From assembly GCA_964517905.1 (NCBI GenBank), contig CAZFDL010000001.1, positions 294-64,293 of the forward strand: a stretch of DNA of 64,000 nt. Direction: 5' to 3'. Position 1 is the first letter of the stretch, and every line of letters begins with the position of its first letter. This document shows, piece by piece, positions 10,933 through 34,500 of the stretch. The notes below the pieces were generated by a model that ran no database searches, was not told where the DNA came from, and was given only the letters and a program-made list of their open reading frames with translations. Position numbers and translations under genes: made by a program. This stretch comes from an uncultured Anaerolinea sp. (GTDB lineage: Bacteria; Chloroflexota; Anaerolineae; Anaerolineales; Villigracilaceae).

Positions 10933-13053
10933 ATGAGTGAAAACACACCCGAAGGAACCGCGTTCTTTGTCACGGCTTATTTTGTCGCCAACGCCGACCG
11001 CCTGCAACTCGCCCAATTTTCAGACCCGCGAGAGCGAGAATCGCAGACGACGATGCCGCGCGTCGACGAGCTATCGATTAGCGAGGTTGAAACCCACTTG
11101 AAAGACGGGGTCCTTAGGGTGGATGAATCCGTTGCTACAGCGCTCCCTTCATCTTTGGCTACCTACCCGCGCCAGTTCGATTGCGAGAGCGCCGCCTTCA
11201 TACCGGTTCATCATAACGACAGATTGCAGGGATTGGTGATGGTCGGCGCACGCATGGGTCAGGCGATTCCAAATGGACTGATCGATGCGTTCCGTCGCGC
11301 GATTCGGCTGGCCGTCAATGTGACTGCAAAAGCGGGCACATCCGCTGAGACATTCGCGAACGATCGGCGCGCCCGCGAATCTCGGGCATTGAGTCTGCTC
11401 GCGTCGAATGCGGCAACCGTCAGTGATTTACGGACGTTTTACTCCTCGGTCCACGATCAGTTCCGAAGTGTGATCGGTGATTACAGTTTTGTGATCGCAC
11501 AGTACGACGCGAGCACTAATTCTATCGGGATCCCCTACTTATTTGAAGACGGTCGGTTCTCATCCCTGGATCCTTTCCCGCTCGGGGAAGGATTAACATC
11601 GCTCCTCATTCGAACCAAAGAGCCTTTGCTGCTAGTGGAGGATACGGAGAAACGTGCGATTGCCATGGGTGCAAAAATCTCTGGTAAGCCGGCAAAATCG
11701 TGGATGGGTGTTCCCCTGTTAGCGCGTGGCGAAGCCATCGGCGCCATCATCGTTCAGCACCTCGACAAAGAACTCGCCTTCAATGAGGACGATCTTCACT
11801 TCGCAACGAGCGTCGCGAATCAAATCGCTGGCACCATTCACAACATCCGCCTCCTACAGGCAAGTCAACAGCTTGCCCTGCAATTTGAAACGGCTGCTGA
11901 AATCGCACGCGACATCAGCGGTTCGCTAAACCTGGATGAACTTCTGCTCAAGGCTGTCGAGTTGATCCGCTCGAGGTTTCATTTCTATCACGCCGCCGTC
12001 CTGCTAAAAGACCTGCCCGGTGAATACGTTGTGGTGCGCGAAGCGACTGGCGAAGCGGGGGCACAACTCAAGCGGTCAGGTTTCAAATTGCAAGTGGGAT
12101 CGAGATCGATCATCGGCTCTGTGGCTGACAAAGGTGAGGTCCTGGTCGCAAACGATGTAACCCGTGATTCGTTCTATCTGGCCCATCCCTCGTTGCCTGA
12201 TACCAAATCCGAAGCCGCCATCCCGTTGAAAGTCGGCGATCGAATTCTCGGCGCGCTTGATGTGCAGAGTGACCGAGCGTACGCGTTCTCGAGTGATAAC
12301 TTGCGCATCCTCCAGATCCTTGCGGATCAATTGGCAATTGCAGTCATCAACACCGAATTATTCGCCGAAACACAGGAACATCTCGCACAGCACCGATTGC
12401 TCCATCACATCACCACCACCGCGGCCTCAGGAACCACACTGGATGATGCGCTCCGCTCCGCGGTGAACGGCCTACAGGTTACTTTGGGGGGCGATCGGGT
12501 GGCCATCCTGCTGATCGATCGGGAGAAAAAGAATCTCGAAGTCAAGGCAGCGGTGGGATATTCGGAGGACGTGTACCGGAGCGCGATTCCCATTGGCAGC
12601 GGCATCACCGGCTGGAGCGCCTTACATCGGCGCCCTTTACGCGTAAACAACGTACTGCTGGATTCGCGCTACATCGAAGCAAGTTCCAACACACGATCAG
12701 AGCTAGCAATCCCTCTGATGTATCGCGGCGAACTTCTGGGCGTACTCAATGTGGAAAGCGAAATCGTCTCGGCGTACGCCGAGAATGACGAGGAACTCCT
12801 GGGCACGTTGGGTGGCAGTCTAGCGGCTATTATCGCGAACGCGCGGCTGCTCGAACAGATCCGCTCACAAGCCGAACGCGAACGGGTGCTCTTCGAGATC
12901 ACAGACAAAATTCGACGTACAACCGATATGCAAACTATCATTGCCACTACCGCCAGTGAGCTAGCCCGCGCCGTCGGAGCTAGTGGTGCACGAATCAAAC
13001 TCGGAGCCGACCCATTAAATACCCCTCATCGAACGGGAGGCAACGATGAATAG
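10933..13053 (+). CDS. Soluble multi-GAF protein (about four GAFs) ending in an N-terminal half-GAF tail; no output domain
   Basis: Repeated GAF motifs (SWMGVPL..IGAIIVQ, SEAAIPL..LGALDVQS, SELAIPL..LGVLNVES); no TM segment; ends RERVLFEITDKIRRTTDMQTIIATTASELARAVGASGARIKL. Confidence 0.85.
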   Translation: MSENTPEGTAFFVTAYFVANADRLQLAQFSDPRERESQTTMPRVDELSISEVETHLKDGVLRVDESVATALPSSLATYPRQFDCESAAFIPVHHNDRLQGLVMVGARMGQAIPNGLIDAFRRAIRLAVNVTAKAGTSAETFANDRRARESRALSLLASNAATVSDLRTFYSSVHDQFRSVIGDYSFVIAQYDASTNSIGIPYLFEDGRFSSLDPFPLGEGLTSLLIRTKEPLLLVEDTEKRAIAMGAKISGKPAKSWMGVPLLARGEAIGAIIVQHLDKELAFNEDDLHFATSVANQIAGTIHNIRLLQASQQLALQFETAAEIARDISGSLNLDELLLKAVELIRSRFHFYHAAVLLKDLPGEYVVVREATGEAGAQLKRSGFKLQVGSRSIIGSVADKGEVLVANDVTRDSFYLAHPSLPDTKSEAAIPLKVGDRILGALDVQSDRAYAFSSDNLRILQILADQLAIAVINTELFAETQEHLAQHRLLHHITTTAASGTTLDDALRSAVNGLQVTLGGDRVAILLIDREKKNLEVKAAVGYSEDVYRSAIPIGSGITGWSALHRRPLRVNNVLLDSRYIEASSNTRSELAIPLMYRGELLGVLNVESEIVSAYAENDEELLGTLGGSLAAIIANARLLEQIRSQAERERVLFEITDKIRRTTDMQTIIATTASELARAVGASGARIKLGADPLNTPHRTGGNDE

Positions 13054-14989
13054 GGTTCTGGCTTGGTGGCGCTCCCGCCGGCGATACGACGGCAGACAAT
13101 TGATCCTTGCTATCGCATCGGCGCAGGTCATCGCACTATTGGGCGCAATTCCCGGGTTGCTATCCATTGCGTTCAATGCGGATTTCAACGAGGCACAGAT
13201 AATTTCCTTATGGCGGGTAATGCCGGTAATGTTTTTCCTCAGCCTGGCTTCGACTTTGTACCTCGGTTGGCGAATTTCTCCTGCTGCAAGAAAACGACTG
13301 GATGACATTGCCAATGAAAGAGGTGGTTTCGACTCTCGGGCCGAGTTCGATGCCTGGCGCGAAGCGACGAGCCTTACCGGCAGACTCGGTCTATCCGCAG
13401 GGTTCCTTTTCTTTGCACTGGGGATTGTTCCGGCAATCATCCTGACAGCATCGCAGGGCACGGCTGTCTCATCGCCCTTTCAACCCACGTCGATCAGTTC
13501 GCCAATTCCGATCTACATCTTCATGGGTGGAACTGCATCCATATTGGGTTGGAGCGTGTTGTTTGTCTTGTTGATGGACCGCTTCACGCGCCCCTTGAGG
13601 CTGTTGCTCGTTCCCTCGGATTTTCAGACTCAGGTGGCGGGCCGCGCCGGGGCGCTGGTGGTCGGCAAATTTCTTGTCTTGATCCTCGCACTGATCTCAA
13701 TCGCCATCCTGCTTATCGCGCCTATCGGCTTTCAGCAAACTGTACGTATTCTATACGCCGAAGTAAGTTCACTCGACGTGTTCAGCGATCTGCGCAGTCA
13801 ATCCATTCTGTTCAGTGTACTGGCATTGATCCTGGGAGTCGGATATTCGTATTACGTGTCAAGGTCCATCTCTGACCCGATCAATGAACTGATCGAAACT
13901 TTTAATAAAGCCGAGCTTGGCGACCTTTCCGTGCGTGCGCCAGTCAGCGCTACAGACGAATTGGGGATCGTAACAATGCACTTCAACCGCACCATGACGC
14001 GGCTTGAGGCTCTCCAAAATACGCTGGAAAACCAGGTGGCTGAACGCACGAAACTCCTCGAGGCTTCGAACGAGGTCGGACGCGTAGCCGCCTCCAGCCT
14101 CGACCCCGATGAAATGCTGGCGCGCGTGATCAATCTCTTCACCGAGCAATTCGGATATTATTTCGCGGCTATTTATCTGCTTGACCCGAGCGAAAAATGG
14201 GCTGAGATTCGCGAAGCCACCGGGGAGATCGGAAAACTTCTCAAGCAGAATCATCAGCGGCATGAAGTCTCCGGCAGGAGCATGGTCGGAAGCGCCATCA
14301 GGGAGAAAGTCGCCAAGATCGCTCAAATTGCATCGGAGGAGCGGAATCGTTATCAGAATCCGCTGTTGCCGTACACACGCTCCGAGATTGCCCTCCCCCT
14401 CCTGGCTGGCGATCGGGTACTAGGTGCGCTCGACGTGCAATCCATGAAAGAATCCGATTTCACTCCGGATGTGATCAGAACGATGCAAAGCATGGCGAGC
14501 CATGTCGCGATCGCACTCGAGAATGCCCGTCTATATCAGGAGGCGCAGCAGAACATCCGAGAGATGCGGGCGATCCAAAAGCAGTATCTTTTGACCGGTT
14601 GGAGTGGGATTTCCAATCCGGTGGAAGATCTGGAATATGGAGTAGGCGACGAACCTGAAGAGGGCGCAAGACAGATCGAAGTTCCGATCAGCCTGCGCGA
14701 CCAGATCCTCGGACAAATCCGGATCGAGAACCCAGAAGCATGGACGCCAGAACAGGAAAATCTCGTCAACGCGGTCGCAGCGCAAGCCGCCGTCGCTCTT
14801 GAGAATGCAAGGCTGGTCAGCGAATCCCGGCAGACCGCAATCCGGGAACGCATGCTGACTGAGATTAACTCGAAAATATGGTCATCGCCCACGATTGAGG
14901 GGATTCTTCAAACTGCCGCGAAGGAACTTGGCAGAAGGCTGGATGCGTCCCGCGCCACCATCGAGCTTAAGCTCGAAGGGGACAAGTAG
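13046..14989 (+). CDS. Sensor 1: multi-TM, HAMP, GAF, split-GAF tail
   Basis: About six hydrophobic segments, HAMP (PINEL..GDL..DELG..FNR), GAF (FGYYF..TRSEIALPL..LDVQS), conserved tail. Confidence 0.88.
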   Translation: MNRVLAWWRSRRRYDGRQLILAIASAQVIALLGAIPGLLSIAFNADFNEAQIISLWRVMPVMFFLSLASTLYLGWRISPAARKRLDDIANERGGFDSRAEFDAWREATSLTGRLGLSAGFLFFALGIVPAIILTASQGTAVSSPFQPTSISSPIPIYIFMGGTASILGWSVLFVLLMDRFTRPLRLLLVPSDFQTQVAGRAGALVVGKFLVLILALISIAILLIAPIGFQQTVRILYAEVSSLDVFSDLRSQSILFSVLALILGVGYSYYVSRSISDPINELIETFNKAELGDLSVRAPVSATDELGIVTMHFNRTMTRLEALQNTLENQVAERTKLLEASNEVGRVAASSLDPDEMLARVINLFTEQFGYYFAAIYLLDPSEKWAEIREATGEIGKLLKQNHQRHEVSGRSMVGSAIREKVAKIAQIASEERNRYQNPLLPYTRSEIALPLLAGDRVLGALDVQSMKESDFTPDVIRTMQSMASHVAIALENARLYQEAQQNIREMRAIQKQYLLTGWSGISNPVEDLEYGVGDEPEEGARQIEVPISLRDQILGQIRIENPEAWTPEQENLVNAVAAQAAVALENARLVSESRQTAIRERMLTEINSKIWSSPTIEGILQTAAKELGRRLDASRATIELKLEGDK

Positions 14990-14992
14990 GGT

Positions 14993-16864
14993 ATGAACAT
15001 CAACCGCTATCCCACCCTGCGAACCCGACTCGCTGTAGTGTTAATCCTACTTGCGGCCGCATTTGCGGCAGGCATTTCCATTGTGCAATACCGAAATTTC
15101 CGCGCGGAATTGCGTGAGAGCCTGCGCCACCGACTTGAAAATATCGCCACGCTCGCCAGCCTGCAACAGGACGGCGACCTGCTCAACGGAGTGCAAGCAC
15201 AAGGCGATCAAAACTTCCAAATTATTCACGAACGCAATCTAAGAATCAAACTTTCCGAACCCGAATTGAAATTCGTGTACACAATGCGAAAGAGGGACGA
15301 AGGAATAATGTTCGTGGTAGACGCCGGTTCGCCGGGCGAACCCGACATTTCAATGTATGGCGATTTTTACGAGGAACCAAGCCAGACCCTGGTGAAGAGT
15401 TTCGACTCTATGACTGGAACGATCGTTGAGCCAGAGATCTACACCGATGAATTCGGTTCTTTCCTGTCGGCGTATGCCCCGATCTTCACTTCAAACGGAC
15501 AGTTTGCCGGCGTGCTGGGCGTCGATATTTCGGCAAATACCATCCTGGCTCAAGAACGCGCGTTTCGCAACCGACTCATCGTGATCGATCTGATTGCCCT
15601 CGTCCTCATCGTACTGGTGGGCATCATTGTTTCCGATTACCTGGCGAAACCCATCGTTCGGTTGCGGGATGCCGCAAACCGAATTAGCAATGGGGAACTC
15701 ACTCACCGTATTACAAAGATCCCTGCGATTCGCGAACTGGCTCAACTCGCTGTAGACTTCAACGCCATGACCACCAATCTGAGCGGTTTGATCACGGATC
15801 TCGAACGCCGCGTGACGGAACGCACCGAAGATATCCTGCGGAAAACGGAACAACTGCGCGCAGCGTCCTACATCGCGCGTCAGACTGCGGAGGTGCAGGA
15901 TCTGCACGAGCTGCTCGATAGGGTGGTCCATCTGGTTACCGACCAATTCGGTTACTATCACACAGGTGTTTTTCTGGTCAACGAATCAGGCGACTCCGTC
16001 ACCCTGCTCACCGCGTCTTCCGCAGGCGGCAAGCGAATGGTGGAAAAGGGTCATTCACTTCGGGTGGGGACGCAGGGGATCGTAGGTTACGTCGCCGCCC
16101 AGAAGAAACCCCGCTTCGCTCTCGACGTGGGTATGGACGCCGTTTTTTTCAACAATCCCGACCTCCCCCTCACTCGCTCTGAAATCGCACTGCCATTGCT
16201 CGTACATGAAAGACTTCTCGGAGTCCTGGACATACAGTCCGATAAACCTGGTGCGTTCAGCCTTCAAGACGTCGATGTGCTGGCGACCCTTGCCGATCAA
16301 CTGGCGGTAGCCATCGACAAAGCCCAATTACTCGAGGCTTCACAGGCGGCATTCGCCCAGCTCGAGGCGCTTACAACTATTCGCACACGTGAGGCATGGA
16401 GTCAAAAGCTGAAGGAAAGAGAGCGTGTTGTCACTTACACGCCTCTGGGCATGCGAGCCGAAAAAGTTCCGGGCAACGAATCCAACGCGCTCACGGTCCC
16501 GATTTCCCTTCGCGGTCAACACATAGGAACGATCTCCATCGCGCGCAAAGGCAACGCAGAATGGAGCCGGCATGACGAAGAGATGATTCGCGAAATCGCC
16601 ATTCAGACCGGACTGGCGGTGGATAATATCCGGCTTCTTGAAGAGGCCACTCAGCGTGCAAAACAGGAACAGACCGTCGGAGAACTTGCATTCCGTTTCA
16701 GTCAGGCGATGGATATGGATTCGCTCCTCCAAACTGCCGCCCGAGAATTAGGTCAGCTTCCCGGAATCGACGAAACCAGTATCTATCTCGGTCCACCCGA
16801 TTCGTCTGATGAGCCGACACCCTCCAATGGCGGGGCGGGATCGTCACGGAGGACGCGCTCATGA
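14993..16864 (+). CDS. Sensor 2: two TMs with extracytoplasmic Cache/PDC-like domain, HAMP, GAF, split-GAF tail
   Basis: YTDEFGSFLSAYAPI..GVLGVD, HAMP, GAF, tail. Confidence 0.88.
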   Translation: MNINRYPTLRTRLAVVLILLAAAFAAGISIVQYRNFRAELRESLRHRLENIATLASLQQDGDLLNGVQAQGDQNFQIIHERNLRIKLSEPELKFVYTMRKRDEGIMFVVDAGSPGEPDISMYGDFYEEPSQTLVKSFDSMTGTIVEPEIYTDEFGSFLSAYAPIFTSNGQFAGVLGVDISANTILAQERAFRNRLIVIDLIALVLIVLVGIIVSDYLAKPIVRLRDAANRISNGELTHRITKIPAIRELAQLAVDFNAMTTNLSGLITDLERRVTERTEDILRKTEQLRAASYIARQTAEVQDLHELLDRVVHLVTDQFGYYHTGVFLVNESGDSVTLLTASSAGGKRMVEKGHSLRVGTQGIVGYVAAQKKPRFALDVGMDAVFFNNPDLPLTRSEIALPLLVHERLLGVLDIQSDKPGAFSLQDVDVLATLADQLAVAIDKAQLLEASQAAFAQLEALTTIRTREAWSQKLKERERVVTYTPLGMRAEKVPGNESNALTVPISLRGQHIGTISIARKGNAEWSRHDEEMIREIAIQTGLAVDNIRLLEEATQRAKQEQTVGELAFRFSQAMDMDSLLQTAARELGQLPGIDETSIYLGPPDSSDEPTPSNGGAGSSRRTRS

Positions 16865-19050
16865 TCCTCACCCGGAAACTGATCCTGCCTGCCGCGATCA
16901 TCTTCGCGATTTTTCTTGCAGGGTTATTCATCTATTTCTTTGTCAGCTTGCATGATGCATATCACGAGGCGGAGGAAGGCCGTCTCGCTGAACTCTCCAA
17001 TTCATTTGCCGTGGAGACCGAGCACCAAATGCAGGTTGCGCTGACCCTTGCCCGAACTGCCGCAGACAATCCCGCGATTCAGGAAGCGTTTGCCCGCCGC
17101 AATCAGCAAGAATTGCTTGGGTTGGTCGTACCGGGATACTCCATGCTTCAAGACACTGGGGTGCTCGTTTCACAAAACCGTTATTTCCTGCCCGACGGTA
17201 ATGTATTCTTCAGCTCCGATGAGGCTGGTGTCGATAACGAAAGCCCAAGCTCTTCGGTATTACAGGCAATTAAGGATCAGAGTTCGTTCGCTGGCCTGGA
17301 GGTTGACAATGGTACGCTCGTGATGCGCGGCATCGCTCCGATCTACTTCGAGAATTCATATGTGGGTTCGGTTGAATTTCAAATTGGACTGACACCCGCG
17401 ATGCTTCAAAGTATGGAGGAAAAATACGACGCAGATTGGCGGATCTTACTGTCCAAGGAATTTGTACAGAACGCTCCGACGATCGAGGCAGGACCCAACG
17501 ACGATCTTTGGGTGATCTCGAGCACTGCAGGCGCGAAATTATTTAACACGCCGGAGAGTTACGAGCAAGCGCTGGACGGATCCCTGTCGATCACGCATCC
17601 CAGCCAGGATGGCCGCGATTACGCGCTGCAATCCTCGCCGATCCATGATTACTCCGGCCGGACCATCGGTGTTCTCGATATTATCTATGACCACACACAC
17701 ATTTCCGCATCCCAAAACACGCGCCTGGTCTTTGCAGCACTCGCGAGCATGCTCGTGTTACTTCTTGGTTTGCTGGCATTGTTCCTGCTAATTCGCCGCA
17801 CTTTGCAGCCCATTCAGATGCTGACCATTGCGGCTTCGGAGATTTCACAGGGCAATCCGATGGCCTACGTTAACATCAGGGCTGAAAGTGACGAGATCGG
17901 GATCTTGATCGATGCATTTAACCGCATGACATCCCAACTTCGAGGCTCAATCAGTGACCTTGAGCAACGCGTTTCAGAACGCACCCATGAACTGGAGGAG
18001 CAGTCGAAACGGCTTCGTTTGGCGGCAGAGATCTCGCAAAACTCACTATCGGCAAACCGGCTTGACGAGTTGCTCGACCGTTCTGCCCGATTGATACTCG
18101 AGCGCTTTAATTACCATCATCTCGGTATTTTTCTCATCGACACGGAAAACGAATACGCCTCCCTGGTTGCCTCACCTACCGACGCCGGCAGGCAGTTGAT
18201 CGACTCCCGTCATCGAATCAGGATCGGAGATACAAGTCTTGTTGGGCGTGCGGCGGCGACCGCCGAACCGCAAATCGCATCCGGAGCGGAGCTGGGTTCT
18301 GATCCGGTGACGAACAGCTTATTGCCCGAGACACGCTCTGAATTGACACTACCGTTAAAAGTTGAAGAGCGCGTCATTGGTATCCTCGATATTCATAGCA
18401 CATCCTCGCATGCATTCAAGCCGGAAGATGTATCGGTCATGTTGGTGCTGGCAGACCAACTCGCAGGTGCCATCGAACGGACGCGGCTCCTGGAAGAATC
18501 ATCCAACACGTTGAAGGAACTCGAACGCGCTTACGGTCGAATCACACGCACGGGTTGGCAGAAATTCGTAGCCAGCGGACGGATCCGCACCAAAGGTTAT
18601 CGCTTTGACAACATCCGTCTCGAACCGGTGAGACAGCTCTCCGCTCCCGGCTGGGAAGCGCTCAAGAAGGGCGACACGGTCATCTCCAATGGAGACGGAA
18701 CAAAACAGGAAGTGGCCATACCGATCAAATTCCGCGGCCAGACCATTGGTGTTGTCCACGCGAAGCTTCGGGAGGGCTACGGAGACAGTGCCATTTCCAC
18801 TTTGGAGCTCGCGGTAGATCGACTGGCTTCGTCATTGGAAAGCGCCCGCCTTTATGAAGAAGCAAGACTCCGTGCCGACCGCGAACAGACGATTGCACAG
18901 GTAACCTCGGCGATCAGTACTTCGAGCGACTACGAAACGATACTGCGGACCACGGTACGAGAGGTCGGTCAGGTATTGCCAGACACTGAAATTGGAATAC
19001 AAATTCTGGGCGATATCACCGCGCCAAGCACCAGCCAGGAGAAGAACTAA
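16861..19050 (+). CDS. Sensor 3: two TMs with extracytoplasmic double-Cache-like domain, HAMP, GAF, split-GAF tail
   Basis: RGIAPI..VGSVEF and PIHDYSGRTIGVL; HAMP; GAF; ATGA overlap. Confidence 0.88.
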   Translation: MILTRKLILPAAIIFAIFLAGLFIYFFVSLHDAYHEAEEGRLAELSNSFAVETEHQMQVALTLARTAADNPAIQEAFARRNQQELLGLVVPGYSMLQDTGVLVSQNRYFLPDGNVFFSSDEAGVDNESPSSSVLQAIKDQSSFAGLEVDNGTLVMRGIAPIYFENSYVGSVEFQIGLTPAMLQSMEEKYDADWRILLSKEFVQNAPTIEAGPNDDLWVISSTAGAKLFNTPESYEQALDGSLSITHPSQDGRDYALQSSPIHDYSGRTIGVLDIIYDHTHISASQNTRLVFAALASMLVLLLGLLALFLLIRRTLQPIQMLTIAASEISQGNPMAYVNIRAESDEIGILIDAFNRMTSQLRGSISDLEQRVSERTHELEEQSKRLRLAAEISQNSLSANRLDELLDRSARLILERFNYHHLGIFLIDTENEYASLVASPTDAGRQLIDSRHRIRIGDTSLVGRAAATAEPQIASGAELGSDPVTNSLLPETRSELTLPLKVEERVIGILDIHSTSSHAFKPEDVSVMLVLADQLAGAIERTRLLEESSNTLKELERAYGRITRTGWQKFVASGRIRTKGYRFDNIRLEPVRQLSAPGWEALKKGDTVISNGDGTKQEVAIPIKFRGQTIGVVHAKLREGYGDSAISTLELAVDRLASSLESARLYEEARLRADREQTIAQVTSAISTSSDYETILRTTVREVGQVLPDTEIGIQILGDITAPSTSQEKN

Positions 19051-19051
19051 C

Positions 19052-22484: not shown

Positions 22485-22516
22485 GTTGGTGAAAACTAAT
22501 TTGTACACGCAAACGA

Positions 22517-24202: not shown

Positions 24203-26733
24203 GCGCCGACCAGATCATTCTCATTCTCTCGGCACTCATCGGCTTGGGAATCCTGCTGGTAATAGCGGAGCCCATCAGACCCCTTCGAAATATCTCCTTG
24301 CGCGCGCGCGTGGCTCTCGGCATTTTAGCCTCCGGTGGAGTCGCCATTGGAATCGTATCAATTTTCGCTGCAAGTAGTGCGGTTCAAATCACCGACTCGC
24401 TATCCCAACGACTCGAAACCAGCGTTCAACTCCTTGCGGAGGAACAGCTGATCAATTCCGTGAGCACCGAGGCTGGCAATGCAAACCAGTCCTTCGAGAA
24501 GATTGAAAGTGATATTGTGGAATTGGCTACCCATTGGAGCGGGCTTTATGCGGAACAGAATGCACTCGGTGAAGGCGGATATTGGGACGCCTCCACGGAA
24601 ATGGTGCAACTGGAGGGCGGACATTATGGGAATTCAGCGGACGATCCATCATCTGTTTATGTGCCTGCCAAGATCCGGTTAAGCGAGTCCGTGCTGAAAG
24701 ACCTCAACACATCGGCTTATCTGGATTTCGCCGCACCCTCCACCCTCGCATCCAATCCCAGTGTACTTGCCGTGTATGGAATCGATACTCGCGGCGTCAC
24801 CCGTTATTTTCCCAACATTAACCTGGCGTCTTTGCTACCGCCGGATTTCGATCCGACGCAGCGCGCCTATTACCGAATCACCTCTCCACTCTTCAATCCG
24901 TCCAGGACGGCGCGCTGGGCGATTCCGTATTTGGACGCGGCCGGAGGCGGGCTGGTTGTGACCGTTGCTGCCCCGGTGTATGTCGGCGACACCTTCAAAG
25001 GTATCGTTGCGGCTGACATGCAACTCTCCACGATCACAAACCAGATCGAACACATCAAGATCGGCCAGACCGGTTACGCGTTCATGATCGACGACGCAGG
25101 ACGCATCATCTCCATGCCGTCTGCCGGGTACCAGCTATTCGGCCTCAATCCGGACGATGTCAATTCTGAGGAGTACTTCAAGATCACGTTACTCGGCGCG
25201 GGTCCGCCGGAACTTGTCGAGATCTCCAACCGCATGGTTGCCGGCGGAACCGGTTTGATCATACTTCCCGTGGAGGGTATCGATACGTATCTCGCATTTG
25301 CACCGATACGGTCGAACGGATACAGCGTAGGCATCGTCGTACCCGTGGCTGAACTTCAAACCGCGACCATCACTGCGCGCAACGAAACCCGGACCCAACT
25401 CGAGGCTGCTGCACGAGTCGCCGCCCTCATTCTGGTTGGTTTGTTGCTCGTGGCGGTGTTGGTCAGCCTGCGCCTCAGTCAACGCATCACAGCTCCGATC
25501 CTTAGGTTGACCGAGACGGCGAATAGCATCGTGGCCGGCGACCTCACCGCGACAGCCGCGGCAGAGTCGCGCGACGAGATCGGAACGCTTGCGAAGGCGT
25601 TCAATACCATGACGCGCCGATTACGGGAAACACTCGCAGGACTCGAACAGCGCGTATCAGAACGCACGTCTGAATTGTCCGAAGCCGGCAAGCAGATCGA
25701 ACAACGCGCGGCACAGCTCGAAACGATCGCTCGTGTGGCGCACACAGTAGGCTCGACGCGCGACCTCGATGCACTGCTTCCAGAGATCGCTGCTGCCATC
25801 AGCAGACAGTTCGGCTTTTACCATGTGGGCATTTTCCTCCTTGACCAGCGCCGGGAATATGCTGTATTGAGCGCAGCGAACAGCAAGGGCGGGCAGAAGA
25901 TGTTGGAAAACAACCACAAACTCAAAGTGGGAGAGACCGGCATCGTCGGATTCGTCACAGGCACAGGCAAAGCTCGCGTGGCCCTCGACACGGGTGCGGA
26001 TGCGATCTTCTTCAACAACCCGTTCCTGCCCGAGACGCGTTCAGAGATCGCCCTCCCGCTTCTGGCGGGCTCAGAGGTGATCGGCGCGCTGGATGTGCAA
26101 AGTACCGAGTCGAATGCCTTCGGAGAGCAAGACACGAATCTCCTCTCGATCCTTGCCGACCAGGTTAGCGTCGCGATTCAGAATTCGATGCAACATGAGC
26201 AAACTCAGCGAGCTCTTGCAGAAGCGGAATCGCTTTCACGTCAACTCATTCGTTCCGGCTGGCAGGCTTTTTCGAAGGGCCGGAAGTTGATCGGCATCCG
26301 CCACTCGGGAGCACGGGCGACCTTTCTCTATGCTAAAAGGAATGGCAGGCAAGCCGATGATTCCAAGATCGTTGACAGTGAGTCTTTTTCGAAACCCCGA
26401 GGCGCGCTACTTTCGATTCCCATCAAACTGCGCGGCGAGGTGATCGGTACCGTCGACGTTCGCTCCCCCGGCAACCGCCGCTGGGACCAGGATGAAATGG
26501 ATATCGTCTCGGCCATAATCGAACGAGCCGCACTCGCGCTTGAGAATGCGCGCTTCCTCGAGGAAAGCCAGAAGCGGGTTGCCAAGGAGCAGACCATAGG
26601 CGATATTTCTGCAAAGATTAGCGCCCACGGAACTGTGGAAAACCTGATCAGAACCGCCGCAATGGAACTTAGCCGATCGCTCCCGGGCGCTGAGGTTGCC
26701 ATTCAATTCAATCAGAAGCCGGAGGTTGAATGA
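24199..26733 (+). CDS. Sensor 7: dCache_1-like domain, HAMP, GAF, split-GAF tail
   Basis: FDPTQRAYY..PYLD..VVTVAAPVY..GIVAAD..GQTGYAFMID; HAMP; GAF; ATGA overlap. Confidence 0.9.
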   Translation: MSADQIILILSALIGLGILLVIAEPIRPLRNISLRARVALGILASGGVAIGIVSIFAASSAVQITDSLSQRLETSVQLLAEEQLINSVSTEAGNANQSFEKIESDIVELATHWSGLYAEQNALGEGGYWDASTEMVQLEGGHYGNSADDPSSVYVPAKIRLSESVLKDLNTSAYLDFAAPSTLASNPSVLAVYGIDTRGVTRYFPNINLASLLPPDFDPTQRAYYRITSPLFNPSRTARWAIPYLDAAGGGLVVTVAAPVYVGDTFKGIVAADMQLSTITNQIEHIKIGQTGYAFMIDDAGRIISMPSAGYQLFGLNPDDVNSEEYFKITLLGAGPPELVEISNRMVAGGTGLIILPVEGIDTYLAFAPIRSNGYSVGIVVPVAELQTATITARNETRTQLEAAARVAALILVGLLLVAVLVSLRLSQRITAPILRLTETANSIVAGDLTATAAAESRDEIGTLAKAFNTMTRRLRETLAGLEQRVSERTSELSEAGKQIEQRAAQLETIARVAHTVGSTRDLDALLPEIAAAISRQFGFYHVGIFLLDQRREYAVLSAANSKGGQKMLENNHKLKVGETGIVGFVTGTGKARVALDTGADAIFFNNPFLPETRSEIALPLLAGSEVIGALDVQSTESNAFGEQDTNLLSILADQVSVAIQNSMQHEQTQRALAEAESLSRQLIRSGWQAFSKGRKLIGIRHSGARATFLYAKRNGRQADDSKIVDSESFSKPRGALLSIPIKLRGEVIGTVDVRSPGNRRWDQDEMDIVSAIIERAALALENARFLEESQKRVAKEQTIGDISAKISAHGTVENLIRTAAMELSRSLPGAEVAIQFNQKPEVE

Positions 26734-28454
26734 TCAGAAAATTCTTCAGCCCGCCGGTACTCAGAAGCAGTGAAGATAACTTCCGCGCGCGGTTTATCAA
26801 CGGGTTTGCATGGGCTGCCGTTGGCTTGTTGACCATTGCGCTCATCACGTATCTCTTCGCACCGTCCGGCGACCTTACCATCGCAATATTGTCTGGTTTG
26901 ATTGTCGTGCTTCTCACCGCGCTCTTCACCTTGAGGCGCGGCAATGTATCCGCGAGCGCCTGGATGATCGTCGGGCTGGGCTGGTTAGGGATCGGTATTC
27001 AAGCACTCACGGCGGATGGCGTAAAGGATGTTATTGTCGTAGCCTATATCGCCATTGGACTTCTGGCAAGCATCGTAATCAGTCATCGCGCCGGCAGTTT
27101 GGTGATTCTCGCCGGCATTGCCGCCGTCGCCGTGCTCTCACTTCGCGAAGCATATGGACTGTTCGTACCGCGTGAACAAGACCCAATTGCGTACGGACGC
27201 GACCTGGGATTCATCTTCTTTGCGATTTTGATTCTGATTTATTTCAACACCACCAGCCTGCGCGATGCAATCACCCGCGCCAACAAAAGCGAGGAGAGTT
27301 TGCGCGCCTCCAACGCATCACTGCGGGAATTGAACCAGACGCTCGAGGAGCGTGTTGTCACCCGCACGACGGAATTGGAGCAGGCCAATAGGCGGTACGA
27401 ACGCCGCGCACGACGGTTCGAGGCGATCGCGCAAGTGGCGCGCGCAGCCGCGGCGAACCAAACCCTCGAAGACCTCCTGGCTTTGCTCGTGCAAGTGATC
27501 GGCGAGAAGTTCGAGTATTATCACGCCGGAATTTTTCTGCTGGATGACAACCGCGAGCACGCAGAACTTCGAGCCGCGAACAGCGAAGGCGGGCGACGCA
27601 TGTTGAGCCGAAATTATCGAATTCATATCGGGCAAACCGGTATCCTCGGCGTGGTTGCCGCCACAGGTGAACCCCGCATCGCTCTGGACACAGGAGCTGA
27701 CGCGGCTTTCCTCAACGACCCCGACCTCCCCGACACACACTCACAGATGGCGCTGCCGCTCAAAGCCGCGGGAGTGGTGATCGGCGTGCTGGATATCCAG
27801 AGCACGGAACCGAACGCATTCTCGGAGGACGATATCGAAGTGCTTTCCACACTATCCGATCAGGTCGCCACCGCAATTCAGAACGCCCGTTATTACGAAT
27901 CGACTCAGGAATTGGTGGAGGAAGCGCAACGCGTGACCGGAGCATATCTGCAAGATTCGTGGCACACTCTCCAGGCACAGGAACGCTTGATTGGATTCGT
28001 TGCCGATGGCACGTCCGTCAAGCCGTCCGATCAACCCGTTGATAGCGCGCTGTTGTCAAAAGTCTCATTGCGCGACCAGCCCTTCGTCGAAAATGGCGAG
28101 AAGCCCCGCATCGCCGTACCGCTGCGCCTGGCTGGGAACGTGGTTGGGATCCTTAACATTAATCTTGATGAAGATCATGAGTGGGAGAACGACGAGATCG
28201 ATATCGCAAAAGCGGTCGCCGACCGTCTGTCGCTCGCGCTTGAAGCCGCGACACTGCTTGAGACGACACAAAAACGCGCCGAGATCGAGCGGCTTACAGC
28301 GGACATCACCGGCAAGATCGGCTCCACTACCCAGTTCGATTCCATCCTGCGGACGGCGGCGGAGGAATTGAGCCACGCATTCGGCGGATCTGAGGTATTG
28401 GTCCAGATCCAGCCGTCCTCAAATTCACACCGATCCGAGCATACGACTTCATGA
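26730..28454 (+). CDS. Sensor 8: PPVF-type multi-TM domain, coiled coil, GAF, split-GAF tail
   Basis: SPPVLRSSEDNFRA; TMs; GAF; tail; ATGA overlap. Confidence 0.88.
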   Translation: MIRKFFSPPVLRSSEDNFRARFINGFAWAAVGLLTIALITYLFAPSGDLTIAILSGLIVVLLTALFTLRRGNVSASAWMIVGLGWLGIGIQALTADGVKDVIVVAYIAIGLLASIVISHRAGSLVILAGIAAVAVLSLREAYGLFVPREQDPIAYGRDLGFIFFAILILIYFNTTSLRDAITRANKSEESLRASNASLRELNQTLEERVVTRTTELEQANRRYERRARRFEAIAQVARAAAANQTLEDLLALLVQVIGEKFEYYHAGIFLLDDNREHAELRAANSEGGRRMLSRNYRIHIGQTGILGVVAATGEPRIALDTGADAAFLNDPDLPDTHSQMALPLKAAGVVIGVLDIQSTEPNAFSEDDIEVLSTLSDQVATAIQNARYYESTQELVEEAQRVTGAYLQDSWHTLQAQERLIGFVADGTSVKPSDQPVDSALLSKVSLRDQPFVENGEKPRIAVPLRLAGNVVGILNINLDEDHEWENDEIDIAKAVADRLSLALEAATLLETTQKRAEIERLTADITGKIGSTTQFDSILRTAAEELSHAFGGSEVLVQIQPSSNSHRSEHTTS

Positions 28455-30766
28455 ATCGAATTCTTCAATCACTGGATAATTGGTTTAAGGGTCTCACCTA
28501 CCCTAGAAAATTTACCGTGATCACGGTCATCTTCCTATTACCCGTGATCGCGTTCCTGCCGCTGATCGGCAATGAAGTCGACCGAATTGATCGATACGGC
28601 ACCGGCGAACTCTTCGGCACCCTTTATACGCGTCCGCTTTGGAAAACCGCGAACGATCTGTACCTGCATCAGGTTCTATCCGCCAAGGTTGTCAATGGCG
28701 AGATGGAATCGGGGGCGCTCAAGACATTGCAGGCGACAATCGACACAGGCTTCGATGAGATCGAGTCTCGTCAACGACAAGAAGTCCTCTCCACGCCCTA
28801 TCAAAGCGAAGTAGCCGCCTTCCGGACACGCTGGATCAGTATCCGAGATTCGCTCCCGAATGCCGACGCGGCGGAGGTACAGGCGCAGCATCAGGAGTTA
28901 ATCCGCGACTTCAACTCCTTGATCATCCGTGTGGGCGAGGATTCGAATCTTGTTCTTGACCCCGACCTGGACACGTATTACTTGATGGATATCGTGCTTT
29001 TCGAAATACCGGAAAACCAGACGTTGATTTTCGAAATTTACAAATTGGCGAGCCCGGCGCAAGCCGACCAACCTCTTTCTGCGCGCGAACAGGAACAGAT
29101 AGCCAACCAGATGGAAGCCATCCAATCGAACATGGCGCAGATCGACCGCAAGATCGGTGTTGTACTCGCTAACAACATCAACGGAGACTTGGAGCCCATT
29201 ATTCTCCCCGCGTGGGACGATTACAAGGCACAAGTTCAGGCTTATGCGGACTTCGTTCAAGATCACATACTCGCCGGATCGCCAGACGGCTCCGTTTCTA
29301 TGAATCTTCAAGCTTTCGAGGTTATGCATAAGGCTAATCAGGATTTCTATACAGCTGCCTCGACCACACTTCAGACCGGCGTGTCAGCGCGCGTGAACTC
29401 ATCCATCCTTCGTTTTTACCCCATCGCTCTCGTTGTTTTAGCGAGCATTGCTGGCGCATTCCTGTTGGGGCAAAGTATCATGAGCTCAATTAGTCAACCT
29501 CTGGCACAGTTGATCGAAGCTTCTCAGCAACTCGCGGCAGGTGATCTATCCACCCGCATCTCAGTGCAAGGCTCTGGCGAGCTCGAAAAGGTGTCGAGGG
29601 CTTTTAACAAGATGGCAGCTGATCTGGAAACTGAGAAAACATCCCTTACCCACCATGCAGAAGAATTGGAGACCGCCAATCAGATCAACGCGAACCGCGC
29701 TCGAGAGTTTCAGTTTATCAGCGAGATATCTCAGATTATTGCGCAGGAACAAAAACTCGATATCCTCCTGCCTTTGATCACCCAGCTTGTAAGCGAAAAA
29801 TTCAATTTCTATCATGTTGGCATATTCCTCCTGCACGAGAGTCACAAATACGCCGTGTTGCAAGCCGCCAACAGCGAGGGCGGGCAACGTATGTTAAAGC
29901 GAGGTCATCGCCTTGAACTTGGGACCGGGATCGTAGGCAATGTTGCCCGCTCAGGTTCCTACCGCGTCGCCTCCGATGTTGGATCTGATGCCACATTCTT
30001 CGACAACCCTGACCTGCCTGCAACCCGTTCCGAAATGGCGATTCCTTTGCAGACGCGTGGTGTGACGATCGGCGTGCTGGATGTACAAAGCACTCGGCCG
30101 GGAGAATTCAACGAAAACATCGTCAATACTTTGAGCATTCTTGGCGATCAGATCGCCATTGCCATCGAGAACGCCCGGCTTTTTGCCAGGACGCAACAGG
30201 CGTTGAACGAATTGCAGGCCGTCTACAACCAATATCTACAGAAAGAATGGCAGGCATTCCGCAACCGGTCTGCCCATATCGGTTACCATCATTTGGGCAC
30301 GAGCGGCATGCTGCTCCAGTCTCCGATCGAATCGGATGAGTTTCAGAAAGTCCTTCAGCGTGGCGAAAGAACTGTCGGCAATAAAAATGGCTCGGAGTCC
30401 GAGCCCAGCATGACAGTTCCAATCAAATTGCGGGGCGAGACCATCGGTGTTTTAAACATCAAATCTCCGGAAAAGAGCCGCGAGTGGAGCCGGGATGAGA
30501 TCAACATGATCGAATCCGTTGCGCAACGCCTTGCGCTAGCACTGGAGAATGCCCGGCTGTTCGAAGAAACGAACCGGCGCGCAGAGCGCGAACGGCTGGT
30601 TTCAGAGATCACTGGAAAGATTCGCAGCGTGAACGACCCGCAAGAGATGATCGATACTGCCCTTGTGGAATTGCGAAACGTGTTGGGCGCGAGTCGCGTC
30701 CAGGTGATTCCGCGGCTGCCACACGGAAACACTACTCAAAACAAAACGAACAGCGAGGAAGCATGA
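28451..30766 (+). CDS. Sensor 9: helical extracytoplasmic domain (LDPDLDTYYL motif), HAMP, GAF, split-GAF tail
   Basis: Two TMs flanking a helical region of about 280 aa; HAMP; GAF; tail; ATGA overlap. Confidence 0.88.
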   Translation: MNRILQSLDNWFKGLTYPRKFTVITVIFLLPVIAFLPLIGNEVDRIDRYGTGELFGTLYTRPLWKTANDLYLHQVLSAKVVNGEMESGALKTLQATIDTGFDEIESRQRQEVLSTPYQSEVAAFRTRWISIRDSLPNADAAEVQAQHQELIRDFNSLIIRVGEDSNLVLDPDLDTYYLMDIVLFEIPENQTLIFEIYKLASPAQADQPLSAREQEQIANQMEAIQSNMAQIDRKIGVVLANNINGDLEPIILPAWDDYKAQVQAYADFVQDHILAGSPDGSVSMNLQAFEVMHKANQDFYTAASTTLQTGVSARVNSSILRFYPIALVVLASIAGAFLLGQSIMSSISQPLAQLIEASQQLAAGDLSTRISVQGSGELEKVSRAFNKMAADLETEKTSLTHHAEELETANQINANRAREFQFISEISQIIAQEQKLDILLPLITQLVSEKFNFYHVGIFLLHESHKYAVLQAANSEGGQRMLKRGHRLELGTGIVGNVARSGSYRVASDVGSDATFFDNPDLPATRSEMAIPLQTRGVTIGVLDVQSTRPGEFNENIVNTLSILGDQIAIAIENARLFARTQQALNELQAVYNQYLQKEWQAFRNRSAHIGYHHLGTSGMLLQSPIESDEFQKVLQRGERTVGNKNGSESEPSMTVPIKLRGETIGVLNIKSPEKSREWSRDEINMIESVAQRLALALENARLFEETNRRAERERLVSEITGKIRSVNDPQEMIDTALVELRNVLGASRVQVIPRLPHGNTTQNKTNSEEA

Positions 30767-31548
30767 CATATTCAATCGCAGTTTCAAACGAAAAGGGCGG
30801 TGTGGCCAAGACCACAACTACGCTCTCGCTTGGTGCCGCCCTGGCTGAGCTTAACTCTCGCGTCCTTTTGATCGACCTCGACCCGCAAGCGAACCTGAGC
30901 CTTGCGCTTGGGCTGGAAACCGGCGAGGCGGAAATCACTTCCGCCAATGTAATGATCGAAAATACGCCGATAAAATCGGCCATTCGCAAGACCGATGTGG
31001 CGAATCTCGAACTCATTCCGTCGAACTCTCGCATCGAAAGCGCGGAGCAATACCTCCCCATGCGCAGTAATTATCTCACGACGCTCCGGCAAGCCATTCT
31101 CGCAGGCACATTGAACTACGACTATATCTTCTTCGATTGTCCTCCGGCGCTTGGTGCGATCACGCTCAATGCCCTCTCCGCCTCCGATCTGCTTGTGATT
31201 CCCACCCAAGCGGAATACTTTTCAGCGTATGCGTTGAGGAACATGATGGGCTCAATCCGTCGCGTTCGGCAGGAAAGCAACCCCAATCTTGCATATCGCA
31301 TTCTCGTTACCCTGCTGGATCGCAGGAACCGAACCCACCGCAATATATTCGAGCAGTTGCAGACCACGTTCGGTCAAGGCGTTTTTACCACCGTCATCGA
31401 GATCGATACAAAACTCAGAGAAAGCCCCATCGCCGGAATGCCGATCACTCAGTATCGCCCTACAAGCCGGGGCTCGCAACAGTATCGCGTCCTTGCCCAG
31501 GAGTTAATCGAATATGTCAAAGAAGAAACCAGCCGACAAACGGCTTGA
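30763..31548 (+). CDS. parA: Orphan ParA/Soj family ATPase
   Basis: Deviant Walker A KGGVAKTT, IDLDPQAN, FDCPP; no parB in the window; ATGA overlap. Confidence 0.92.
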   Translation: MTYSIAVSNEKGGVAKTTTTLSLGAALAELNSRVLLIDLDPQANLSLALGLETGEAEITSANVMIENTPIKSAIRKTDVANLELIPSNSRIESAEQYLPMRSNYLTTLRQAILAGTLNYDYIFFDCPPALGAITLNALSASDLLVIPTQAEYFSAYALRNMMGSIRRVRQESNPNLAYRILVTLLDRRNRTHRNIFEQLQTTFGQGVFTTVIEIDTKLRESPIAGMPITQYRPTSRGSQQYRVLAQELIEYVKEETSRQTA

Positions 31549-34500
31549 AAAACTTTTTCAAAACATAACTCCTGAAGAAACAACCTCCGAACCGAGGCCT
31601 GCCGGCCGCCAGCGGGTGGTGGAAAAGGTGGATATCCCACCGTCGGTTCCCCGCGCGTCAAAGAGATCAGTTTCACCTCCGACGCGTCCCCTGGAGTTGA
31701 TTCCGAGTCCCGCTCAACAGAGTCCTGAAATCTCGCTTGCGTTTCAAGTGGGACAAAATAATTGGGCGACGTTGCAAGTGCTGGATGAAAACCACGAGAA
31801 GAAATGGACTCCAGACGATGAGTTGCTCGTCAGACAAGTGGTGGACCAACTCTCGCTCGCACTGGAAAATGCCCGCTTATTCAAGGAAACGGAAACACGA
31901 GCACGAGAAGTCTCCGTTTTGAACGAGGTCGGACAGGCGCTTGCCGCGACACTGAATATCCAACAGATCATTGAGACCACATATAACGGCATCTCGCGGC
32001 TGTTCGATGCCAGGAACTTCTACATTGCGCTCTACGACGAATCAACGAACGAGATCCTTTTCCCTCATAATGTGACCGAATCCGTGGTGGATCGCTCCAT
32101 CACCCGCCTGCCTTTGGACAAGGGCATCACTGCACACATGATTCGTACGCGTGAGAGCGTCCTGATCTCGGATGGGAGCGATACGTGGATGCTCGCGCGC
32201 GGAGAAACTCCGGTCGGCGAGTCGGCACAATCTTTCCTCGGCGCGCCGCTCATCGCAGGCGACAAGGTCCTTGGCGCTATTGCGCTGCAGGATTACGAAA
32301 TTTCGCACAAATATGATGAGCACGACCTAAAACTCCTGACCTCATTCGCCAGTCAGGCTGCGATCGCGATCGAAAATGGGCAGCTATTCGAGAAAGCGAC
32401 GGCAAGTCAGGCAACACTTTCCGAAGCACTGCGTATCGCCAGGATCGGATACTTCGAGATCGACGTGGTTACCCAAGTCATAACGATCACCGATGAGTTG
32501 TTCGCCATCCTCAATACCTCCGTGGAACAGGAAGGAGGGCAGCAATTTCGTGCGCGCGATGCGCTGCGTAAGTTCGTCAGCGCGGATGATTACACGGTCG
32601 CGATCAAGGCTTACGAAAAGGCGATCAAGACCGGTAAACAGCGAAACGAGGTGGCCGTGGAGGCGCGATATCGCACCCGCGACGGCCGAACAATCTGGGT
32701 CAACACCACCTACAAGGCCGAACTCGACGAGAAGGGACGCGTTTACAAAGTCGCAGGATCGTCACAGGACATCACCGAACGAAAAATCAACGAGTTGATC
32801 CAGGCTGCGATCACAGAGATATCAGAGGCAGCATTAACAGCATCGGACTTGTCGGGATTAATCCAGACAGTGCATAAGGCGGTGGGCACTCTCGTACCGG
32901 CGCGCAATTTCTACATCGCGCTGTACGACCCCCAAGCCGACCTAATGACGTTCCCCTATTACGTGGACGAACATGATGCCACTATGCCGCCCCAAAAACT
33001 TGGAGGCGGACTCACCAGTTACGTGATCCGCACTGGAAAAGCGCTGCGGGCGACACCGGAGATTTACGCCGAACTGGCTCAAGCGGGCGAAGTGGTCAGC
33101 GGAGGCACCGCCGGAGCGGATTGGCTGGGCATTCCGTTGCGGAACGAATCAGCGGTCCGCGGCGTACTGGCGGTTCAATCCTACGATAACGCGGTGCGAA
33201 TTACGCAGCACCACCAGGAAATTTTAACCATCCTGGGTACCCAGGTATCGGCTTCCATCGAACGGTTACTGGCGAGAGAAGCGCTCGCCAAGTCGGAAGC
33301 CGATCTGCGCGCCCTCTTTTCCTCAATGCAGGATGTGGTACTAGTGGTTGATAAAGACACACGCTATATCCGCATCGCACCAACCAATCCATCGCGTCTG
33401 TTCCGCCCCCCGGATGAATTGCTCGGCAGGAGGATGGACGAATTATTGCCCCCCGAAACACATGAACAGTTTCGCGCAGCAATCCATCGTGCGCTTCAAT
33501 CGAACGAGGTGGTTCAGATCGAATACCAATTGCCAATCGAAGGACACCTATATTGGTTCCTCGCCAACCTCTCCCGGCTCAACGAGAACGAAGTATTTTG
33601 GGTCGCCCGTGATATTACGGAGCGCAAGAAGTCCGAAGAGGCGCTCCAAAGGCGAAATACTTACCTGGCTATCTCCGCTGAGATCGGGAAGTTGGTCACT
33701 TCTACGCTCGACCTGAACAAGATCTTTTCAGAGACCGTGATTCGTGTGAAAACGGGTTTTGATGTTTATTTCGCCGCTCTCTACAGCATCGAAGAAACTG
33801 GTTTCAACGCCGTTTTACGCGGGGCAACCGGGGAAGCCGGTGATCAAATGATCGCGGCAAAACATTCGGTGACAATCGGATCACAGAACATCGTTGGCTT
33901 GGTGGCCGACACCGGAACCGCCAGGCTGATCGAAGATGTGAGCACGGAACCTTTGTATCAACCCAATCCACTCCTGCCTGAAACTCGCTCCCAGGTGGTG
34001 ATTCCCCTTCGGATCGGTACGCGCATCGTAGCGGTACTTGAGATTCACTCCGACCGAGTGCATGCCTTCACGGAAGACGATATCTCGGTGCTTCAACTGC
34101 TAAGCGACCAGGTCGCAGTGGCGATCGACAATGCCCGATCATATGAATTGTCACAACAACTGATCAAGGACCTGCGCGAAGTGGACAAATTAAAGAGTCA
34201 GTTCCTTGCAAATATGAGCCACGAACTTCGGACACCGTTGAATTCCATTATCGGGTTCTCGCGGGTAATCCTCAAGGGCATCGATGGTCCTATCACAGAT
34301 TTGCAGCAACAGGATCTAACCGCGATCTACAATTCAGGCCAACACCTGCTAGGCTTGATCAACGACGTACTCGATCTTGCCCGCATCGAAGCCGGCAAAA
34401 TGGAATTGAACTTCGAGGAAGTCAACCTGGCCGACATGATACAAAGCGTCCTTTCGACCGCCAAGGGTCTCGTTAAGGAAAAACCGATTCAGCTGGTTGC

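What the first reader, a model, noticed from the sequence alone, without database searches (positions are those of the whole stretch)
12860..31890. Split/permuted GAF 'plug and socket' module: possible daisy-chain linking sensors to the kinase
Seen: each of the nine sensors ends with the second half of a GAF (e.g. VPIKLRGETIGVLNI..REWSRDEINMIESVAQRLALALENARL) followed by the first half (RERLVSEITGKIRS..DPQEMIDTALVELRNVLGASRVQVI), then a short tail and stop. The soluble 10933 protein has only the first-half tail (RERVLFEITDKIRRTTDMQTIIATTASELARAVGASGARIKL). The kinase begins, after a disordered linker, with only a second half (ISLAFQVGQNNWATLQVL..KKWTPDDELLVRQVVDQLSLALENARL, about 31725-31880). 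Inference: halves complement in trans, so the soluble protein has a plug only, the sensors have both and the kinase has a socket only, giving a chain or lattice ending on the kinase. The alternative is an intramolecular circularly permuted GAF, but that would leave the two lone halves unexplained.
Basis: inference. Interest (0 to 1): 0.88.

Follow-up and report, generated by a model that had tools for sequence, protein, structure and literature searches.

The report
Gene-ordered split-GAF sensor chain
Nine membrane sensors with no enzyme of their own each end in two out-of-order halves of a GAF domain, and sequence co-variation shows each tail matching only the next gene's product, so they likely clip together in gene order into one chain that ends on a single histidine kinase.

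Summary
Observation confirmed. All 9 sensor tails read GAF second half ('socket'), then first half ('plug'), then stop. The 10933 protein has a plug only and the kinase a socket only. ParA followed by a socket-first gene recurs in 79 of 80 family loci.

New result: the plug of gene i co-varies with the socket of gene i+1, not with its own socket or others. 9 of the top 12 couplings fall on GAF contact surfaces, against 1-3 of 12 for controls. A model trained on other genera picks the upstream plug for 136 of 152 sockets (chance 20), and for 31 of 74 in distant families (chance 10). AlphaFold leaves the plug strand unpaired in the monomer.

Best reading: an ordered chain in trans, cap to s1 ... 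s9 to kinase. It is not a permuted domain, random lattice or hub. Signal relay along the chain is inferred. No complex could be folded, and the strongest coupling rests on few evolutionary switches. The scan noted this operon on two other genomes, once as a hub; gene-order pairing is new here. Nine paper searches found no description.

The parts
10086..10478 (+). stand-alone receiver 1 (likely output)
   Evidence: PF00072; two receivers lead the operon in relatives
10438..10914 (+). stand-alone receiver 2 (likely output)
   Evidence: PF00072
10933..13053 (+). chain cap: soluble poly-GAF protein (706 aa), plug only
   Evidence: no TM segment
12862..13005 (+). cap plug (aa 644-691; key residue R661), predicted partner: socket of s1
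13046..14989 (+). sensor s1 (TM-HAMP-GAF-socket-plug); socket core 14672-14815 (Q580), plug 14828-14971 (W612)
14993..16864 (+). sensor s2 (2TM-HAMP-GAF); socket core 16487-16636 (Q538), plug 16649-16792 (S570)
16861..19050 (+). sensor s3 (dCache_3-HAMP-GAF); socket core 18709-18852 (R654), plug 18865-19008 (S686)
19052..20797 (+). sensor s4 (multi-TM-GAF); socket core 20435-20587 (R502), plug 20600-20743 (G534)
20787..22484 (+). sensor s5 (multi-TM-GAF); socket core 22131-22283 (R489), plug 22296-22439 (G521)
22517..24202 (+). sensor s6 (multi-TM-GAF); socket core 23876-24028 (R494), plug 24041-24184 (S526)
24199..26733 (+). sensor s7 (dCache_1-HAMP-GAF); socket core 26407-26556 (R776), plug 26569-26712 (S808)
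26730..28454 (+). sensor s8 (multi-TM-GAF); socket core 28107-28256 (R499), plug 28269-28412 (G531)
28451..30766 (+). sensor s9 (2TM-HAMP-GAF); extended socket from Trp at ~30248, core 30407-30559 (R693), plug 30572-30715 (R725), predicted partner: kinase socket
30763..31548 (+). orphan ParA-family ATPase (deviant Walker A KGGVAKT)
31514..31573 (+). basic/amphipathic N-terminal peptide of the kinase (KRLEKLF), likely ParA partner motif
   Evidence: conservation 0.62 vs 0.26 in the linker; a similar peptide opens whichever gene follows ParA in 9 of 9 distant loci
31727..31879 (+). kinase socket (aa 72-122; Q112): last GAF hairpin plus helix running into GAF1
31514..35647 (+). soluble hybrid histidine kinase (socket-GAF-PAS-GAF-PAS-GAF-HisKA-HATPase-REC-REC), chain terminus
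35692..37368 (+). threonine-synthase-like PLP enzyme fused to a receiver (likely output), conserved after the kinase
   Evidence: below NCBIfam cut-offs

Best explanation
Each sensor ends in a socket and a plug, and the plug of one gene co-varies with the socket of the next, so the proteins likely complete one GAF per junction and assemble in gene order into a chain that is predicted to relay all sensor signals to the single kinase at its end. Shown in sequence: the split, the order cap(plug) - n x (socket+plug) - ParA - kinase(socket), and the i to i+1 pairing signal. Predicted: the plug's helix 1, helix 2 and strand 1 fill the gap in the next protein's GAF, with strand 1 beside the last strand. 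One 45-residue helix joins socket and plug, so each tail is one repeat of a tandem-GAF rod cut out of phase. Inferred: the joined repeats form a continuous, probably dimeric, helical spine beneath the membrane, with the sensor stalks as side branches. Conformational changes would pass along it into the kinase, which would phosphorylate its own receivers, the two stand-alone receivers and the ThrC-REC enzyme. ParA would position the chain through the N-terminal peptide of the next gene's product, and coupled translation may help ordered capture. Odds: ordered trans chain about 0.87; signal relay, given the chain, about 0.75.
For: Layout: 79 of 80 family stretches show ParA followed by a socket-first gene. 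47 of 48 stretches with a plug-only gene have it first. The kinase N-terminus is single-copy in 173 of 221 family genomes. In 12 of 12 distant loci where the terminal kinase was reached, it has at least one socket-type half and no plug, despite different architectures. In 3 of them the socket helix runs straight into HisKA. Co-variation (680 pairs, Meff 485): 4 couplings above z 6 for i to i+1, against 0 (self), 1 (i-1), 0 (i+2, i-2, i+3). Mean z on the top 20 intact-GAF couplings is 1.12, against 0.01 +/- 0.21 in 25 within-operon shuffles. 9 of the top 12 lie on three GAF contact bands covering 11% of cells (controls 1-3 of 12; mutual information 8 of 12). The socket's GY strand also couples only to the upstream plug (z 9.4). 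Socket Arg/Gln versus upstream-plug small/large residue: 4 violations in 638, against 179 in 622 for own plug; all 10 window junctions obey. Held-out partner prediction: 136 of 152 (chance 20.4; controls 61/155, 35/128, 56/135), window 8 of 10. Distant families: 31 of 74 (chance 10.2), and 23 of 74 with contact bands only and the strongest pair removed; controls at chance. Linkage control: the intact GAF half lying between plug i and socket i+1 shows no contact pattern, and plug distances track the next socket (rho 0.44) better than that GAF (0.29) or the own socket (0.24). AF2 monomer (133 seqs, pLDDT 89): helix 83-127 continuous, plug strand unpaired. The model aligns across GAF-GAF boundaries of tandem-GAF structures 4bwi, 3mf0, 1ykd, and by sequence to 8w26. 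Two natural in-chain socket-plug-socket-plug fusions obey the same residue rule.
Against: No complex structure and no experiment. The strongest coupling rests on few events: 5-10 state changes on trees, and of 5 independent switches 2 were concordant, 1 discordant, 2 unclassed. Shuffled controls reached z 7.9 at most, so only that pair clearly exceeds the null. Overall correlation with the intact-GAF map is weak (0.061 vs null max 0.058), and top-20 overlap within +/-1 (3) is inside the null range (max 6). The contact bands were drawn after seeing results. Gln-type junctions alone give only 3 of 12 in bands, the same as a control. Couplings outside the bands also predict partners in distant families (26 of 74), so shared ancestry of junctions contributes. 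Mid-chain specificity is modest (2 of 10 window sockets miss). Signal relay has no direct evidence.
Confidence: 0.65

Rival explanations
1. The ordered chain forms but serves only as a scaffold (clustering, stoichiometry, ParA positioning); signals reach the kinase by another route or only from the nearest sensor.
For: All pairing evidence shows contact, not allostery. The socket hangs off the stalk by a variable linker.
Against: Sensors have no other output domain. In 3 distant loci the socket helix leads directly into HisKA. Strict order is hard to justify for a mere scaffold (inference).
Confidence: 0.22
3. Intramolecular circularly permuted GAF, or a self-swapped homo-oligomer of each tail.
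For: Both halves are in one chain. AF2 single-chain models can miss alternative folds.
Against: Same-protein pairing: 0 couplings above z 6 and 1 of 12 in bands, and chance-level prediction in distant families. The plug strand is unpaired at the far end of a continuous helix in two AF2 runs. Lone halves are conserved at both chain ends.
Confidence: 0.04
4. The halves are remnants of repeated fission or unequal crossing-over in a poly-GAF gene; plug i and socket i+1 co-vary only because they are inherited together.
For: The junction behaves as the inherited unit: on a socket tree the upstream plug's key residue changes 8 times, the own plug's 51 times. Non-contact couplings also predict partners.
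Against: The intervening intact GAF is linked as closely but shows no contact pattern. Contact-band couplings transfer to families at about 52-55% nearest identity. The lone kinase half is more conserved than its linker (0.55-0.74 vs 0.26).
Confidence: 0.05

Closest known systems
Tandem-GAF sensor proteins (Cph2 4bwi, PDE5 3mf0, CyaB2 1ykd, SyB-Cph1 8w26)
   Same: The tail is one repeat of such a rod: end of one GAF, linking helix, start of the next.
   Different: Here the repeats lie on separate genes and each GAF would be completed in trans. No solved split GAF of this kind appeared.
Chemosensory arrays (MCP-CheW-CheA-CheY) with ParA-like positioners PpfA/ParC
   Same: Many output-less receptors, one kinase, stand-alone receivers and an orphan ParA (PpfA/ParC role read in passages of PMC9178275).
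   Different: No MCP signalling domain or CheW in this genome. The kinase is HisKA class, not CheA. Linkage would be a linear ordered chain, not a hexagonal lattice.
PKS/NRPS docking (COM) domains (recalled; a docking-domain paper was seen only as a search listing)
   Same: The C-terminal element of protein i pairs with an element of protein i+1, giving a line colinear with gene order.
   Different: Those pass metabolites between enzymes through small helical motifs. Here the pair is a split sensor-type GAF in a signalling system.
Donor-strand complementation in chaperone-usher pili (recalled)
   Same: A strand from one subunit completes the fold of the next, giving an ordered polymer with a cap and a terminator.
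   Different: Ig fold, N-terminal donor, extracellular and chaperone-driven. Here: GAF fold, C-terminal helix-helix-strand donor, cytoplasmic.
Operon order matching assembly order (Wells et al. 2016, PMC4742563; abstract and outline read)
   Same: Gene order mirrors subunit contacts.
   Different: That is a statistical trend across complexes. Here it is an extendable modular chain of 11 proteins with one repeated interface.

Membership tests
GAF domain (intact) | N- and C-terminal GAF segments detectable | tested here: met
GAF domain (intact) | segments contiguous in N-to-C order in one chain | tested here: not met
   order reversed in 9 of 9 tails; lone halves in cap and kinase
Circularly permuted GAF | own plug packs into own socket | tested here: not met
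   no self couplings; plug strand unpaired in AF2; predictions only
Chemosensory system | MCP signalling domain and CheW | tested here: not met
   0 hits in the genome, 93% complete; controls ring in 8 of 14
Chemosensory system | CheA-class kinase | tested here: not met
   HisKA + HATPase + 2 REC
Hybrid class I histidine kinase | HisKA H-box, HATPase_c, receiver domains | tested here: met
   SHELRTPL visible
ParA/MinD ATPase | deviant Walker A and family profile | tested here: met
   KGGVAKT; AAA_31 E 6e-50; motif definition read in PMC9178275
ParA/MinD ATPase | partner peptide stimulates the ATPase and positions cargo | not testable with these tools
   candidate peptide follows ParA in 9 of 9 distant loci
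Split-GAF chain (proposed) | plug i physically binds socket i+1 | tested here: inconclusive
   strong co-variation; complex prediction not available; no experiment
PKS/NRPS docking domains; pilus donor-strand systems | docking-domain or Ig-pilin fold | tested here: not met
   the tail is GAF by Pfam and structure; analogy of mechanism only

The most novel reading that the evidence does not exclude
Anaerolineae build a giant, extendable histidine kinase from separate genes. Each sensor adds one split-GAF link, the operon's gene order sets each sensor's place in the chain, and signals from up to a dozen or more sensors are integrated along one helical spine into one kinase. It would be a third way to wire many receptors to a kinase, besides fusion and chemoreceptor arrays, and a natural set of ordered protein connectors.
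Probability: 0.6. Interest if true: 0.95.

Novelty: categorically new. Interest (0 to 1): 0.9.

Why it matters
If true, this is a signalling architecture for which I found no description: receptors concatenated by domain complementation in gene order onto one kinase. The kinase N-terminus is found in 173 of 221 genomes of one Anaerolineales family, and tails occur in other families of the class and a few genomes beyond it. It gives a directly testable case of operon order encoding supramolecular position and of long-range signal integration. It explains many 'GAF domain proteins' that lack an output, and it offers a set of short, semi-orthogonal plug/socket connectors with a partly readable pairing code.

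Tried and rejected
A first whole-tail DCA within single proteins was noisy, and apparent plug-internal couplings came from a misaligned loop; alignments were rebuilt. The first distant-family test (8 of 23 vs 4.7) was underpowered and was repeated on merged loci (G683 left out as family-like). Correlation with the intact-GAF coupling map and +/-1 overlap did not separate clearly from shuffles. Foldseek gave no match at E <= 0.001, only GAFs above that. Pfam at E 10 gave only GAF for sockets and nothing informative for the lone plug. NCBIfam named no family for the sensors. ESM Atlas gave only generic Chloroflexota GAF clusters. No RNA holder was listed, which is no evidence either way. The genome-contig scan with the alignment could not run; the single-protein scan named relatives as Anaerolineales/Anaerolineae. 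Nine paper searches (listings and abstract starts only) found no description of this operon or of split-GAF chains; subscription papers are mostly not covered. Held-out counts were not de-duplicated for 2-kb overlaps between fetched stretches, and related genomes are not independent.
Full report
Observation. The region is one co-directional run of 15 genes with gaps of -41 to +44 nt: two receivers, a 706-aa soluble GAF protein, nine membrane sensors (2-6 predicted TM segments; Cache/HAMP/GAF, no catalytic domain), an orphan ParA, a 1377-aa hybrid histidine kinase and a ThrC-like-REC enzyme. Against a profile of 15 intact GAFs from the window, 9 of 9 sensor tails match the C-terminal part and then the N-terminal ~50 positions before the stop. 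The kinase N-terminus matches only the C-terminal part and the soluble protein's tail only the N-terminal part. All 10 plug hits in the genome are in this operon. Named relatives are Anaerolineales/Anaerolineae.

Conservation. The kinase N-terminus is single-copy in 173 of 221 family genomes. In 80 fetched 20-kb stretches, 79 show ParA followed by a socket-first gene. 47 of 48 stretches with a plug-only gene have it first, and in 23 it is fused to a HAMP sensor. Sensor number varies widely, and the domain after the kinase socket is GAF or PAS. Tails were found in 28 of 301 genomes drawn across the phylum, 4 of them outside the class, with only 12 candidates scored per genome. In 14 merged stretches from 13 more distant genomes, all 12 terminal kinases reached carry one to three socket-type halves and no plug, at the N-terminus, mid-protein, or (3 cases) directly before HisKA. 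The lone kinase half is far more conserved than its linker (0.55-0.74 vs 0.26).

Shape. AlphaFold2 of the s9 tail (133 sequences, pLDDT 89) gives a partial GAF sheet, one unbroken helix (83-127), a second helix, and a confident but unpaired last strand (same outline with 9 sequences). The model aligns across the GAF-GAF boundary of tandem-GAF structures (4bwi 11-160, 3mf0 2-160, 1ykd 6-148; Z about 7, rmsd 3.7-4.3 A), and the profile matches 8w26 across such a boundary. So the tail is one repeat of a poly-GAF rod cut out of phase. In a GAF, helix 1 runs parallel to the last helix (intact couplings; general knowledge), so completing it from these halves needs a staggered partner, that is, a chain.

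Who pairs with whom. From about 120 stretches I took 760 sockets and 762 plugs and computed socket x plug couplings under different pairings. Only plug(i) with socket(i+1) gave signal: 4 couplings above z 6 (top 14.2), against 0 for self, 1 for i-1 and 0 for i+2, i-2, i+3. The mean z on the top 20 intact-GAF couplings was 1.12, against 0.01 +/- 0.21 in 25 within-operon shuffles. The top pairs read as last helix parallel to helix 1, last helix antiparallel to helix 2, and last strand antiparallel to strand 1. 9 of 12 fall in these bands (11% of cells, drawn after seeing the data), against 1-3 of 12 in controls; mutual information gives 8 of 12. The socket's GY strand couples to the upstream plug's helix 2 (z 9.4) in that pairing only. 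The strongest pair is a swap: socket Arg goes with a small plug residue, socket Gln with a large one, with 4 exceptions in 638, against 179 in 622 for the own plug. All ten window junctions obey it.

Held-out tests. Trained on other genera, the model ranks the upstream plug first for 136 of 152 sockets in the window's genus (chance 20.4; same test for other pairings 61/155, 35/128, 56/135) and 8 of 10 in the window. In distant families (nearest identity about 0.52-0.55) it scores 31 of 74 (chance 10.2), and 23 of 74 using only contact bands without the strongest pair. Other pairings stay at chance, and 12 of 12 loci have mean rank below 0.5. Trained on sensor-sensor junctions only, it assigns the last plug to the kinase in 54 of 70 loci and the cap to the next gene in 42 of 58 (chance about 10 each). 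This rejects a hub. As a linkage control, the intact GAF half that lies between plug i and socket i+1 on the DNA shows no contact pattern, and plug distances follow the next socket (rho 0.44) more than that GAF (0.29) or the own socket (0.24).

Against. The strongest pair reflects only 5-10 state changes; of 5 independent switches 2 were concordant, 1 discordant and 2 unclassed. Shuffles reached z 7.9. Whole-map correlation with intact GAFs (0.061) and +/-1 overlap barely exceed or lie within the null. Gln-type junctions alone give 3 of 12 in bands, Arg-type 7 of 12. Couplings outside the bands also predict partners (26 of 74), and the junction is inherited as a unit (8 vs 51 changes), so ancestry adds to the signal. 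That inheritance pattern is also what selection to keep junctions matched would produce (inference). No complex could be folded and nothing is known by experiment.

Mechanism. Shown: the split, the layout and the i to i+1 co-variation. Predicted: each plug completes the next protein's GAF, so cap, s1-s9 and kinase form one ordered rod. Inferred: the rod is dimeric (HAMP and GAF are dimers, general knowledge), runs under the membrane with sensors as branches, and transmits conformational change into the kinase, as tandem-GAF spines do (recalled). The 3 loci where the socket helix leads into HisKA fit this. A short basic LxxLF-type peptide opens whichever gene follows ParA: the kinase here, caps or sensors in 8 of 9 distant loci. 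It is likely the handle by which ParA positions the chain. The outputs are likely the two receivers and ThrC-REC.

Comparison and novelty. It works like a chemoreceptor array in logic, but MCP and CheW are absent and the kinase is class I. It works like PKS docking domains or pilus donor-strand polymers in assembly (recalled), but with a GAF fold. Papers: nine searches (listings only) found no description; I read the abstract and outline of PMC4742563 and passages of PMC9178275. Verdict: real, conserved, most likely an ordered trans chain; categorically new as an architecture, with the relay step untested.

Noticed in passing
G134, G214, G094, G054, G131 (merged loci): A second, socket-less membrane kinase (mostly HAMP-GAF-HisKA) sits just upstream of the chain, often next to ParA.
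   Followed up: no
L151-L153 (G501) and L154 (G489): Terminal kinases with three sockets, and plug-only genes in mid-operon, suggest several chains converging on one kinase. Plug and socket counts are near equal in contiguous loci (16/16, 9/9, 6/6, 5/5).
   Followed up: partly
L106:10960-12969, L107:15556-18276, L108:13193-15409: Natural socket-plug-socket-plug fusions, and a socket-intact GAF-plug extension, inside single sensors; the internal junctions obey the Arg/Gln rule.
   Followed up: partly
G501, G131, G094, G214, G234 gaps: Genes that look like substrate-binding lipoproteins lie between sensors in distant operons, possibly ligand-delivery partners; a SAM-methyltransferase-like gene (family recalled, not scanned) sits near the kinase in 3 loci.
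   Followed up: no
window 35692-37368: A threonine-synthase-like PLP enzyme with an N-terminal Cys pair motif and a C-terminal receiver follows the kinase in nearly all loci seen, including distant families; likely a phosphorylation-gated output. An EamA exporter follows it in the window.
   Followed up: no
window 10933-11340: The cap's N-terminal ~135 aa look like a degenerate GAF starting at strand 1; conserved in relatives.
   Followed up: no
window 44484-49440: A separate GAF kinase, REC-GAF kinase and OmpR-type regulator cluster; one weak socket-like hit (25 bits) in the first kinase was not examined.
   Followed up: no
L150, L136, L112, L009: Several relatives show sensors or the kinase broken into pieces, possibly assembly frameshifts.
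   Followed up: no
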